In this document: positions 20,811-27,890 of the stretch, piece by piece | Layout: each line of letters opens with the position of its first letter | Position numbering within the stretch: the stretch's first letter is position 1 | Virus record (IMG/VR): IMGVR_UViG_3300027906_000005 | Strand: one strand, 5' to 3' | Origin: an uncultured virus (IMG/VR IMGVR_UViG_3300027906_000005) | Taxonomy: Duplodnaviria > Heunggongvirae > Uroviricota > Caudoviricetes | DNA length: 64,000 bases | Translations under genes and position numbers: made by a program | Notes under the pieces: generated by a model | The model's database searches: none | What the model saw: only the letters and a program-made list of their open reading frames with translations | Told to the model about the DNA's origin: nothing

Positions 20811-20993
20811 ATGCTAGTCAGGCAACTGATTCATAAACTAGAGCAGTTTGACCCTGATGCTAGTGTATCCCTTGTGGACTATGATAAGGATGAAGACTTT
20901 GATATAGTTGCATTTCGCAAGGAGAAGGGTTATAATGTTATACAGATACGATCTATTCCCACTTACAATTTTTCTAATGTCATTGTCCATTGA
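20811..20993 (+). CDS. Hypothetical protein
   Basis: 60-aa ORF right after the promoter. Confidence 0.6.
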   Translation: MLVRQLIHKLEQFDPDASVSLVDYDKDEDFDIVAFRKEKGYNVIQIRSIPTYNFSNVIVH

Positions 20994-21642
20994 ATACTTG
21001 GAGGCAAACCTGCTTCCATTGATTGAGAGTATTAAACCCAAGACCACAGAGAGTTACCTAATGGCAGCATGTGGACTTGATGAAAGACCATCAACACAGT
21101 CAGTATCCATCACTGTGGGTACTAGACTAGAGAAGTTTTGGAACACAGTGATCAGTGATAGTCCTCATTGTGTGAATCACATAGCAGAGAGTGACAGATT
21201 AGAGGTCAGTGGTCGTACTAGACAAATTGATCATTACTTCAGTGTACCTGACCTAGGTGCTGATAGTCACGTATATCTTGAGAGTAAGTGCAATCCTAAT
21301 CTTGACACTGAGAAGGTACGTGCTAGTAATGAGAAGATACAACAAATAACAGAGACACTATCCGAAAGGGATGATCATGAGGTACAGAGTGGTTACTTCG
21401 TACCTGTACTGCGTAGGATACCTGTAGATATCTCTAAGGAGTATGCTGACCTAGGTGTGGGTGTATTTGGTGTAGAAGACCTTATAGGGTGGATGGGAAT
21501 CGATGGATGCCCATTTACTGCTGATGAGTACTTTGCCTTCTTTAAGGAGAGGCTAGCACCTATGATCACCAGACTCATGGATGGTGTGCCAGCTAACAAA
21601 CCTGCACGTAGGGTATTGCATGGCAACCTTGATCTGCTATAA
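20977..21642 (+). CDS. Putative PD-(D/E)xK nuclease (restriction-endonuclease-like)
   Basis: G..LE, then RQIDHYF...YLESKCN fit the E..D..ExK pattern; ATG 20977 is the likely start. Confidence 0.5.
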   Translation: MSLSIEYLEANLLPLIESIKPKTTESYLMAACGLDERPSTQSVSITVGTRLEKFWNTVISDSPHCVNHIAESDRLEVSGRTRQIDHYFSVPDLGADSHVYLESKCNPNLDTEKVRASNEKIQQITETLSERDDHEVQSGYFVPVLRRIPVDISKEYADLGVGVFGVEDLIGWMGIDGCPFTADEYFAFFKERLAPMITRLMDGVPANKPARRVLHGNLDLL

Positions 21643-21643
21643 T
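21587..21643 (+). promoter_or_regulatory. Palindrome plus early promoter driving the RNA cluster
   Basis: TGCCAGCTAACAAACCTGCA, TTGCAT, extended TGcTATAAT with -10 at 21638-21643. Confidence 0.75.
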
Positions 21644-21648
21644 TACAG

Positions 21649-21860
21649 AGTAAGGCAAGGGTGAGGTTAATTAATCCTCTTTAAGTCGAACCTCTTACTG
21701 CTGTAGCCCCCTTGATAGTTCAGGGCTAGAGGCGATAGGAACTATCATCCTAAAGGTTCTTAACTACTGGGATACATCGTAAACCGCACGAAGCGTATGC
21801 TGCAGCGTCGATGGAAAGTCCAGATATGATGTTAGGGTAATGCACTGACCCCTTTAGTTC
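21649..21860 (+). ncRNA. Candidate structured non-coding RNA(s), three modules including a pseudoknot
   Basis: Gap without a credible ORF between promoter and tRNA; multiple complementary stems (see findings). Confidence 0.65.
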
Positions 21861-21865
21861 TTTTT

Positions 21866-21940
21866 GCCCCCATAGCTCAACGGTAGAGCAACGCTTTTGT
21901 AAAGCGTAGGTTGTCAGTTCAAATCCGACTGAGGGCACCA
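21866..21940 (+). tRNA. tRNA-Thr(UGU) with encoded CCA
   Basis: Cloverleaf: D arm GCTC/GAGC, anticodon arm ACGCT-TTTGTAA-AGCGT, TTCAAAT T-loop, ACCA end. Confidence 0.93.
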
Positions 21941-21966
21941 TGTTAACCCATTCTCATTTTATCATC

Positions 21967-22083
21967 ATGTCACAAGCATTTGCAGAATTCCTACTTGACA
22001 ACGCTAACAGTGGAGTTGAGTTGCTACAAGTACTAGATCACATTGAGGACTGCTATAACGAGGAAGTTGAGACCCGCTTATAA
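21967..22083 (+). CDS. 38-aa acidic micro-protein
   Basis: MSQAFAEFLLDNANSGVELLQVLDHIED...; fills the gap after the tRNA. Confidence 0.6.
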   Translation: MSQAFAEFLLDNANSGVELLQVLDHIEDCYNEEVETRL

Positions 22084-22089
22084 GATGAA

Positions 22090-22293
22090 ATGAAACTGAG
22101 ACCAGATCCCCTATCTAATGAATCCCCGATGTTAATCACTAGTCAGTTACTCTCACAAAAGATTAAACTCATCAAAGCTTGTCTTAAGCATTCGTATGAG
22201 TATACAGGTGAAGAGGAGGCTAGATTGAAACGTGAACTGTCATCATTGTATGAACAGCGAAGGGAGTTAAATAGGGGTAATGGTTTTGGTTAG
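22090..22293 (+). CDS. Hypothetical protein
   Basis: 67-aa ORF ending in KGFG-like GNGFG. Confidence 0.6.
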   Translation: MKLRPDPLSNESPMLITSQLLSQKIKLIKACLKHSYEYTGEEEARLKRELSSLYEQRRELNRGNGFG

Positions 22294-22296
22294 ACA

Positions 22297-22515
22297 ATGC
22301 CCAAACAGATTCCATTTCAAGTTGGTGATCTAGTATCATATGATGGGAGCAACCAAGCTCACATCACATTTGTAAGTAATGAGTATGTCACTGTATGTAC
22401 TCATCAATGGCCAAAGGAGGGAACACTCCATGGCTACCAACAAACTAATGTCCTAGTCTATCCCCATGACTGGCACCTAATCCATCCTCGTACTAATCCT
22501 AATGAAGCAACCTAA
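22297..22515 (+). CDS. Hypothetical protein (SH3/KOW-like start FQVGDLV)
   Basis: 72-aa ORF. Confidence 0.6.
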   Translation: MPKQIPFQVGDLVSYDGSNQAHITFVSNEYVTVCTHQWPKEGTLHGYQQTNVLVYPHDWHLIHPRTNPNEAT

Positions 22516-22702
22516 GAGAGTACAGTTCAATGTCATCAACCAAGATGTTAATGTAGAACTGAAACAGAAACGTAAAGGTGTCTATTGGAATTATAATAGT
22601 GTACCACAGACCTATGGTCCGTTTCGTAATGAGGATCAGGCAATTAATGATGCCAAGACCTATTCACAGTACGGTACAGTCGGAGGACGTAGGAACAGAT
22701 GA
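22502..22702 (+). CDS. Hypothetical protein
   Basis: 66-aa ORF with a YGPF..EDQA motif. Confidence 0.6.
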   Translation: MKQPKRVQFNVINQDVNVELKQKRKGVYWNYNSVPQTYGPFRNEDQAINDAKTYSQYGTVGGRRNR

Positions 22703-25702: not shown

Positions 25703-25783
25703 TAGTGATTCGTTTTAGGTTTCAGAGTGTGGGAGCGTTGGTCAGTGCATCCGTGGATCATTGCTCAGATCTCCCACTTTTTT

Positions 25784-25840
25784 AATATAAGCGATTTTGG
25801 GTCGTTTGTCTGGACGAAGTGGACACTTTGCCAACTGACC
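25784..25840 (-). promoter_or_regulatory. Palindrome plus -10 on the minus strand
   Basis: GGACACTTTGCCAACTGACC 25821-25840; TATATT on the minus strand at 25784-25789. Confidence 0.65.
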
Positions 25841-25858
25841 ACGGGCGGCTGGAATCCC

Positions 25859-25890
25859 AAAAAAATAGCACCCCTGAGGGTGCTTTTTTT
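25859..25890. terminator. Bidirectional intrinsic terminator
   Basis: A-tract, AGCACCC-CTGA-GGGTGCT, T-tract, just after the stop of 25895..26173 (-). Confidence 0.85.
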
Positions 25891-25894
25891 CAGT

Positions 25895-27353: not shown

Positions 27354-27506
27354 ATGACAAAATGCAACACGAAGGTCCGCTACTGGATCGAACCACATCA
27401 GCAAGCAAGACTCATCAGTTTCGCAACGTATGATTCTGCATTAAGAATCATAGAAGACTTCACACGACTCGGATGGAGGGCAGAGATCGCACCCCCTCAC
27501 GTTTGA
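27354..27506 (+). CDS. 50-aa hypothetical protein
   Basis: MTKCNTKVRYW...ISF.TY..A...GWRAEI. Confidence 0.6.
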   Translation: MTKCNTKVRYWIEPHQQARLISFATYDSALRIIEDFTRLGWRAEIAPPHV

Positions 27507-27656
27507 CAGTCGGACAGTGCCGCCCCCCTTGGGCGGTTCGCCCCCCGCCCCTAGCTTAGGTTCCCTATCGATTCTAACCTACAAAGTCTTGCACGAGCGA
27601 GCGTGATATAAAATAAAAAATTTTTCTAAATATTCTCCCAGACCCCTTTCAAAACA

Positions 27657-27821
27657 ATGCCTAAAGCACCACCCCCGAAACCCTCCGAGCCAGTAAAAGC
27701 AATCAACGGTATCTCAGTATTCCTGCTAAGGGGTGCCCTTGGAGACCATTATATGAAGGACTGGTCAGAGGAGCACGTCAGAGAATGGGAGGAATATAAA
27801 GAAACTGCAAAGGAATTATGA
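27657..27821 (+). CDS. 54-aa hypothetical protein
   Basis: MPKAPPPKP..LLRGALGDHYMKDWSEE. Confidence 0.55.
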   Translation: MPKAPPPKPSEPVKAINGISVFLLRGALGDHYMKDWSEEHVREWEEYKETAKEL

Positions 27822-27834
27822 CACTATTCCCCCC

Positions 27835-27863
27835 TTGACTCTGTCAGGGAACTCTGATATAAT
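27835..27863 (+). promoter_or_regulatory. sigma70 promoter with no clear palindrome
   Basis: TTGACT, 17-bp spacer, TATAAT. Confidence 0.8.
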
Positions 27864-27890
27864 ATATACTAGAACTCCTCCCACACCGCC

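What the first reader, a model, noticed from the sequence alone, without database searches (positions are those of the whole stretch)
21649..21860. Three-module structured RNA with an H-type pseudoknot, transcribed ahead of tRNA-Thr
Seen: it starts about 6 nt after an extended -10. Module 1: AGTAAG(21649-54)/CTTACT(21694-99) encloses GGT/ACC and a GAGG/CCTC hairpin with purine-rich internal loops (GCAAG, AAGTCGA). Module 2: TAGCCC(21704-09)/GGGCTA(21723-28), whose loop TGATAGTTC(21713-21) is a perfect 9-bp complement of GAACTATCA(21739-47), i.e. a pseudoknot. Module 3: CTAAAGG(21750-56)/CCTTTAG(21851-57) closes a multibranch with CTGG/CCAG, CATCG/CGATG, CGC/GCG and GTTAG/CTGAC, followed by a U-rich run. 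Inference: early phage ncRNA(s), possibly released by tRNA processing. Possible roles are protein decoy, antitoxin mimic (type III toxin-antitoxin antitoxins are pseudoknots) or ribozyme. From memory, module 1 may resemble the Cyano-2 motif, and manA RNAs occur near cyanophage tRNAs; neither is verified.
Basis: partly seen in the sequence, partly recalled or inferred. Interest (0 to 1): 0.75.

Follow-up and report, generated by a model that had tools for sequence, protein, structure and literature searches.

The report
Nested RNA modules shuffled among cyanophages
This 210-base stretch of an ocean cyanobacterial virus is a stack of four small folded RNA modules, one of them a pseudoknot, which related viruses swap and plug into one another like interchangeable parts; they may act as decoys for host proteins, but that job is untested.

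Summary
The stems are real, but this is not one three-part RNA. It is a cassette of four independent modules, C-A-B[H], between a promoter-like site and tRNA-Thr. None matches Rfam 15. Module A (the pseudoknot) is conserved in T4-like cyanophages: 99.5% of cells pair in 74 distinct copies versus 79% shuffled, and 13 of 18 pairs covary. Modules B and C covary too. Across fetched loci, the modules occur alone, in series or nested in each other's loops: 69 architectures in 250 distinct cassettes, on one strand in 139 of 139 multi-hit loci. Orthologous loci gain or lose B and H. Best reading: early phage non-coding RNA that displays aptamer-like decoys for host factors. Function is inferred, and transcription was not shown. 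It is not a type III antitoxin, Cyano-2 or manA. No earlier scan note matched this sequence; one described other conserved modules in a cyanophage tRNA operon. A 2023 catalogue whose alignments I could not read may list single modules.

The parts
21635..21643 (+). Extended -10 promoter-like site (TGn-TATAAT), overlapping the stop codon of the upstream ORF
   Evidence: Sequence; kept in orthologous loci L290, L315, L251; not tested as a promoter
21649..21699 (+). Its outer stem also serves as the 5' hairpin of module A.
   Evidence: 39 IMG/VR loci; 26 distinct cores with compensatory changes in outer and inner stems, middle stem invariant; slot 11-62 nt
21697..21747 (+). Stem 1 21700-09/21723-33 with a G-G opposition; stem 2 21714-21/21739-46; predicted major-groove triples from 21711-13 onto 21739-41.
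   Evidence: triples are inference with weak support; single copy in the window
21750..21857 (+).
   Evidence: 80 distinct contexts, 39 distinct inserts; 58 of 58 parsable loci pair all 6 P2 positions; 100% paired, 7 of 11 pairs covary in 22 insert-free copies
21775..21813 (+). Module H, inserted in B's slot (closing stem 21775-79/21809-13)
   Evidence: 14 of 29 pattern hits are genuine copies; found inside B, apparently inside C, and inside three other carriers; inner structure not tested by covariation
21858..21865 (+). U-rich spacer before the tRNA; not conserved, so unlikely to be a dedicated terminator
   Evidence: Replaced by 5-nt non-U-rich spacers in L290 and L315
21866..21937 (+). tRNA-Thr(UGU)
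   Evidence: Rfam RF00005 66.7 bits; ARAGORN

Best explanation
A promoter-proximal, non-coding RNA cassette of a T4-like cyanophage, built from four autonomous folded modules (C, A, B, and H inside B). Shown by comparison: each of A, B, C keeps its helices by compensatory change and keeps fixed loop nucleotides; B, C and several other modules have a loop that works as a socket for self-closing inserts; phages shuffle, gain and lose them. Inferred: host RNA polymerase transcribes the cassette early, from about 21649, with a base-paired 5' end; RNase P cleavage at tRNA-Thr gives it a defined 3' end; each module is an aptamer-like surface that binds a host factor in trans (a defence or toxin-antitoxin protein, an RNase, another RNA-binding protein, or a signalling nucleotide), so the cassette is a mix-and-match decoy arsenal. 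I rate the identity (conserved modular structured RNA) at about 0.9 and the trans-acting decoy function at about 0.45.
For: Covariation: A 99.5% of 1303 cells paired vs 79.0% shuffled and 21-53% slid, 13 of 18 pairs with both-side changes (74 of 101 unique copies aligned); independent metagenome set 102 of 102 cores with 6/6 stem-1 pairs, 99 of 102 with a pseudoknot of 7 bp or more; B 100% of 237 cells; C. RNA sense: 62 G-U cells vs 6 non-pairs in A; all module hits on one strand in 139 of 139 loci; promoter-like -10 within 45 nt for A 101 of 228, B 35 of 79, C 11 of 37, vs 5-6% control. Non-coding: 28 of 36 B inserts shift the frame. Autonomy: L290 and L315 have C-A-B without H, L251 has C-A without B, at the same locus. 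Sockets: 39 distinct inserts in B, some doubly nested; 28 of 36 inserts close their own ends vs 231 of 1080 shuffles. Against a fixed cis target: A precedes a tRNA in 55 of 109 loci and otherwise unrelated genes (gp32, psbA, heme oxygenase, phosphate-binding protein, halogenase, DUF6561), and in some loci a new promoter-like site follows it. Accessory distribution: A in 2 of 5 complete genomes searched with the model. Precedent for phage RNA decoys: pseudo-ToxI (PMC3475682, abstract read).
Against: No transcript evidence: none of 4 runs laid covers 21669-21863, and all were contigs. No binding partner or ligand identified. A has no host counterpart (5 pattern hits in 185,579 genomes; 4 unpaired, 1 on an 832-bp phage-like contig), so it does not copy a host RNA; B, C, H were not scanned in hosts. 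A is single-copy in each of the 7 genomes or records where it was found by pattern or model, with no repeat expansion as in pseudo-ToxI. B is followed by one gene family in at least 23 cases, which fits cis action or mere synteny. About half of A copies sit within 20 nt of a tRNA, which fits a processing role. Most 'invariant' bases were fixed by my search patterns; P-SSM2 carries a variant at two of them. Module tags other than A, B, C are sequence tags, not validated structures.
Confidence: 0.45

Rival explanations
1. Cis-acting leader elements: the modules stabilise or process the transcript they head (block 5' exonuclease or RNase E entry, or aid RNase P processing of the tRNA), whatever gene follows.
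For: Promoter-proximal position; A lies within 20 nt of a tRNA in 55 of 109 loci, mostly Arg(TCT) 41 and Pro(TGG) 12; indifference to the downstream gene fits a generic stabiliser; B often precedes one gene family.
Against: A generic stabiliser does not need about 19 different sequence tags nested in each other's loops. A also sits deep inside cassettes and just before new promoter-like sites. One copy per genome despite many early transcripts.
Confidence: 0.22
2. Orphan riboswitch-type sensors, like the candidates manA and wcaG: metabolite-binding aptamers that tune downstream genes.
For: Compact pseudoknot with fixed core and probable triples; many A copies end 15-45 nt before a start codon; manA lies next to A in relatives; PMC2864571 (passages read) proposes manA and wcaG as riboswitch candidates.
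Against: Downstream genes share no pathway; no conserved terminator or alternative stem found; modules buried in another module's loop have no expression platform.
Confidence: 0.12
3. PeSL-like DNA cassettes: promoter plus stem-loops that act as terminators and recombination points, with no RNA function of their own.
For: Located in the variable early region beside sigma70-type promoters and clearly shuffled; PeSLs do this in T4-type coliphages (PMC2839356, section 13 read).
Against: PeSL stem-loops overlap or flank the promoter boxes; these lie downstream of the -10. A covarying pseudoknot, fixed internal loops and strand-specific G-U pairs are not needed for a terminator or recombination site. 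No target-site duplication in 28 of 36 inserts.
Confidence: 0.08
4. One or more modules are new self-cleaving ribozymes that cut the cassette or tRNA precursor, as theta ribozymes do beside phage tRNAs (recalled, not checked in a paper).
For: Fixed core bases, pseudoknot, tRNA adjacency.
Against: No Rfam ribozyme hit. By inspection, A lacks room for the P3/L3 of an HDV-like fold (HDV layout recalled). Cleavage inside nested modules would break up the carriers.
Confidence: 0.07

Closest known systems
manA (RF01745) and wcaG (RF01761) motifs of cyanophages
   Same: Conserved structured RNAs of T4-like cyanophages with unknown function; manA follows A plus tRNA-Arg in three loci and lies 1 kb from A in P-SSM2.
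   Different: No sequence or model match; described as single fixed motifs, not as sockets and inserts (PMC2864571, passages read).
Pseudo-ToxI of phage PhiTE / type III antitoxins (ToxI, CptI)
   Same: Phage-encoded non-coding RNA, H-type pseudoknot, possible decoy logic (PMC3475682 abstract; PMC5086642 passages).
   Different: No tandem repeats, terminator or toxin gene; no host counterpart of A; heterologous modules rather than copies.
PeSL cassettes of T4-type phages RB49/phi1
   Same: Promoter-linked intergenic cassettes in variable regions, shuffled by recombination (PMC2839356).
   Different: PeSL hairpins overlap the promoter and terminate transcription; these modules are downstream, covary as complex RNA folds and nest.
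T4 RNAC and RNAD
   Same: Phage small RNAs of unknown function (PMC9697503, passages read); their location in the T4 tRNA cluster is recalled.
   Different: Classed as late RNAs in that paper; sequences were not compared here; no modular nesting known to me.
Triplex-containing H-type pseudoknots (SAM-II, telomerase; recalled)
   Same: A pyrimidine loop parallel to the purine strand of stem 2 would give C.G-C, U.A-U, U.A-U triples.
   Different: No Rfam match; no ligand known; triple support is 4 of 5 loci, probably one lineage.

Membership tests
Type III antitoxin (ToxI/TenpI/CptI) | Tandem array of short repeats | tested here: not met
   No tandem repeats in 21000-22600; no internal repeat of A
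Type III antitoxin (ToxI/TenpI/CptI) | Rho-independent terminator followed by a toxin gene | tested here: not met
   No terminator called there; a tRNA follows; no toxin family in 9 flanking ORFs by Pfam or 6 by PADLOC
Type III antitoxin (ToxI/TenpI/CptI) | H-type pseudoknot | tested here: met
   Covariation in both stems of A
manA (RF01745) | Covariance-model score at or above 55.2 bits | tested here: not met
   No hit at E<=10; the model does find manA in relatives
Cyano-2 (RF01702) | Covariance-model match | tested here: not met
   No hit in the window or in 66 homolog loci
Known self-cleaving ribozyme classes in Rfam | Covariance-model match | tested here: not met
Known self-cleaving ribozyme classes in Rfam | Self-cleavage activity | not testable with these tools
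   Needs an in vitro assay
Riboswitch | Consistent position ahead of genes of one pathway | tested here: not met
   tRNAs and unrelated genes follow A
Riboswitch | Ligand binding and switching | not testable with these tools
   Needs probing and reporters
PeSL cassette | Sigma70-like promoter in a variable region | tested here: met
   Extended -10; enrichment over control
PeSL cassette | Simple stem-loop within or overlapping the promoter, acting as terminator | tested here: not met
   Modules start 10-45 nt downstream of the -10 and are complex folds
Candidate structured RNAs of Fremin et al. 2023 | Listed among their 10,006 models | tested here: inconclusive
   76 rows name cyanobacterial hosts but the alignment files could not be read

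The most novel reading that the evidence does not exclude
T4-like cyanophages carry a combinatorial library of natural RNA aptamers: about 20 portable modules that plug into each other's loops to build multi-decoy RNAs, each neutralising a different host defence protein or signal. This would be an RNA counterpart of anti-defence gene islands, and each module would be a bait for an unknown defence system of Prochlorococcus or Synechococcus.
Probability: 0.35. Interest if true: 0.93.

Novelty: categorically new. Interest (0 to 1): 0.78.

Why it matters
It adds at least three well-supported RNA folds that are absent from Rfam, in viruses of the ocean's main photosynthetic bacteria. It also shows an organisation I found in no paper searched: RNA domains nested in each other and exchanged as parts. 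The modules are present in cultured phages (P-SSM2, S-SKS1, P-HM1, P-RSM6, ACG-2014f), so function is directly testable, and the same tests may explain the orphan motif manA next door. 'Categorically new' refers to this architecture; each module alone is a new orphan motif of a familiar kind.

Tried and rejected
Expression: 9 runs listed, none holding half the words; the 4 laid were contigs and none covered 21669-21863, which is no evidence either way. Own assembly not held; nearest record G001 lacks the region. First module-3 scan was mostly noise from a terminase-like gene (5 of 38 genuine by eye). One search used a mis-registered structure string; one search is the corrected count. One search missed one B subtype; one search is the corrected count. 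One search filtered on P2 pairing, so one search gives the unfiltered count (4 of 62 loci had no parsable 5' core). A Y-RNA (YrlA) lead came only from weak hits overlapping tRNAs (27 and 24 bits vs 69). A second pseudoknot in B was rejected on geometry (no connecting loop). MITE-like insertion: no duplication in 28 of 36 inserts. A dedicated partner peptide: the small downstream ORF follows only 10 of 146 A, 8 of 43 C, 2 of 77 B copies. Literature: 10 searches found no description; PMC12379486 and PMC2518516 (passages) were irrelevant; Doron 2016 is not held; Weinberg 2017 supplement unreadable; Weinberg 2010 alignments contain manA (control) but not the longer motif strings, with one file cut and only some short GGCGAUAG hits viewed.

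Full report
Setting. Flanking genes (purC, DNA methyltransferases, cyanophage-type small ORFs) and all close homologs point to a T4-like cyanophage. The window's own assembly is not held. The finding lies between a 220-aa ORF and tRNA-Thr(UGU) at 21866-21937, the only Rfam or ARAGORN hit in the window.

Observation. Every named stem is present. The pseudoknot geometry arose in 0 of 2000 shuffles and nowhere else in the window. Overall folding energy is ordinary (z -1.10), so the case rests on comparison. Rfam gives nothing over 21649-21860 at E up to 10, nor over the modules in 66 homolog loci.

Module A (21697-21747). BLAST found it in 51 cyanophage records at 83-92% identity. On 74 distinct copies, chosen by hand from 101 unique ones, 99.5% of 1303 cells pair against 79.0% in shuffles and 21-53% when partners are slid; 13 of 18 pairs change on both sides, 6 of 9 in the pseudoknot. 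These counts are sequences, not independent events. In the metagenome set, 102 of 102 cores pair all six stem-1 positions and 99 of 102 have a pseudoknot of at least 7 bp. Copies are normally preceded by a hairpin whose 3' strand ends in the first bases of A. Six bases that the pattern did not fix are invariant. They suggest three major-groove triples from 21711-13 onto 21739-41. A scan forcing a non-G at the third position gave 5 loci: 4 changed all three bases together, 1 did not. The 4 are probably one lineage, so this is suggestive only. A is virus-restricted: of 5 hits in 185,579 genomes, 4 do not pair and 1 is an 832-bp phage-like contig. It is patchy and single-copy: P-SSM2 and S-SKS1 have it; P-HM1, P-RSM6 and G005 do not.

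Module C (21649-21699). It was found in 39 IMG/VR loci, mostly without A. In 26 distinct cores the outer and inner stems covary, the middle stem and two bulges are nearly fixed, and the inner loop varies from 11 to 62 nt. Here its outer stem doubles as A's 5' hairpin.

Module B (21750-21857). Two scans (47 and 62 loci) gave 80 distinct contexts (filtered on pairing). Unfiltered, 58 of 62 loci have the 5' core, and all 58 pair all six P2 positions. On 22 insert-free copies, 100% of 237 cells pair and 7 of 11 pairs covary; one subtype drops a pair from both strands. B's apical loop holds 39 distinct inserts of 2-92 nt.

Module H (21775-21813). The window's insert recurs: 14 of 29 pattern hits are genuine, inside B, apparently inside C, and inside three other carriers. 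Its inner fold was not tested.

Architecture. Using 19 sequence tags that I defined, the fetched loci give 250 distinct cassettes in 69 architectures, 60 of them multi-module, including double nesting such as B[E[D]] and K[B[H]I]L. The loci were selected by A, B, C and H patterns, and tags other than A, B, C are not validated structures. Hits share a strand in 139 of 139 loci with two or more hits. At this very locus, L290 and L315 have C-A-B without H and with compensatory changes, and L251 has C-A without B. One locus holds about 600 nt of concatenated modules. P-SSM2 has two such cassettes and a separate A. Inserts close their own ends (28 of 36 vs 231 of 1080 shuffles), lack target-site duplications (28 of 36) and mostly shift the frame (28 of 36). 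A promoter-like -10 lies within 45 nt upstream of 101 of 228 A, 35 of 79 B and 11 of 37 C copies, against 5-6% in controls.

How it most likely works. Shown: conserved folds, sense-strand orientation, portability. Inferred: early transcription from the extended -10, a paired 5' end, and a 3' end made by RNase P at the tRNA (established tRNA biology, untested here). Fixed loop bases on covarying stems are typical of binding surfaces. Modules buried in other modules cannot easily control a downstream gene, and what follows A is a tRNA in 55 of 109 loci or unrelated genes. Patchy, shuffled content in the variable early region fits an arms race. I therefore favour trans-acting decoys (0.45) over cis stabilisers or processing aids (0.22), sensors (0.12), DNA cassettes (0.08) and ribozymes (0.07). 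Against this: no transcript evidence, no partner, no host counterpart for A, no copy expansion, and B's frequent linkage to one gene family.

Comparison with known systems. It works most like a phage RNA decoy such as pseudo-ToxI (PMC3475682, abstract) but fails type III membership (PMC5086642, passages). It neighbours manA but is not manA or Cyano-2 (PMC2864571, passages and supplements; PMC9964418, passages). It is shuffled like PeSLs but differs in position and fold (PMC2839356, abstract and section 13). T4 RNAC/RNAD are a loose parallel (PMC9697503, passages).

Novelty. Ten searches found no description. Limits: most subscription papers are missing, Doron 2016 is not held, the Weinberg 2017 supplement is unreadable, and Fremin 2023 (PMC10690425; passages, section 11, two tables) lists 76 rows with cyanobacterial hosts whose alignments I could not see. 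Single modules may be listed there. Earlier scan notes gave no sequence match.

Verdict. Real, conserved and uncatalogued in Rfam; the nested, exchangeable design is the surprising part; function open. Interest 0.78.

Noticed in passing
window 20980-21642 (+): 220-aa ORF (phrog_26553) beside a Dam-type methyltransferase; has a D...E-x-K pattern and a weak HinfI-family lead (11% of one cluster), so possibly a restriction-like nuclease. Its stop codon overlaps the cassette's -10.
   Followed up: partly
window 21964-22083 (+): Acidic ~38-aa ORF family with no Pfam, PHROG or atlas hit; found within 300 nt after cassette modules in 13 loci including P-SSM2.
   Followed up: partly
L221, L256:1540, L011: Module J, a further unannotated element with a likely pseudoknot (a GGAUGU stretch matching a later ACAUCC), 29 copies; no Rfam hit.
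   Followed up: no
L228, L234, L242, L256:1482: A recurrent internal loop, GCA opposite UAAGUC, closes several different carriers and resembles the two bulges of module C; may be one repeated binding site.
   Followed up: no
L035, L089, L121, L216, L200:315-351: C/A-rich single-stranded loops in some cassettes resemble the seed of host sRNA Yfr1; L200 gave a weak Yfr1 hit (24.3 bits vs 38). Some modules may act by base pairing.
   Followed up: no
L353, L431, L005: A short ORF after A or A-tRNA resembles Phd/YefM antitoxins (E 0.002, below cut-off; annotated VapB46 in one record).
   Followed up: partly
window 27434-27890 and 25703-25894: GC-rich non-coding stretches near the strand switch; a similar element follows module C in P-HM1. 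Possibly an origin or boundary element.
   Followed up: no
L257:1676-1891, L259:1032-1382: Hypothetical CDS calls in P-HM1 and P-RSM6 overlap module C and may be mis-annotated RNA cassettes.
   Followed up: no
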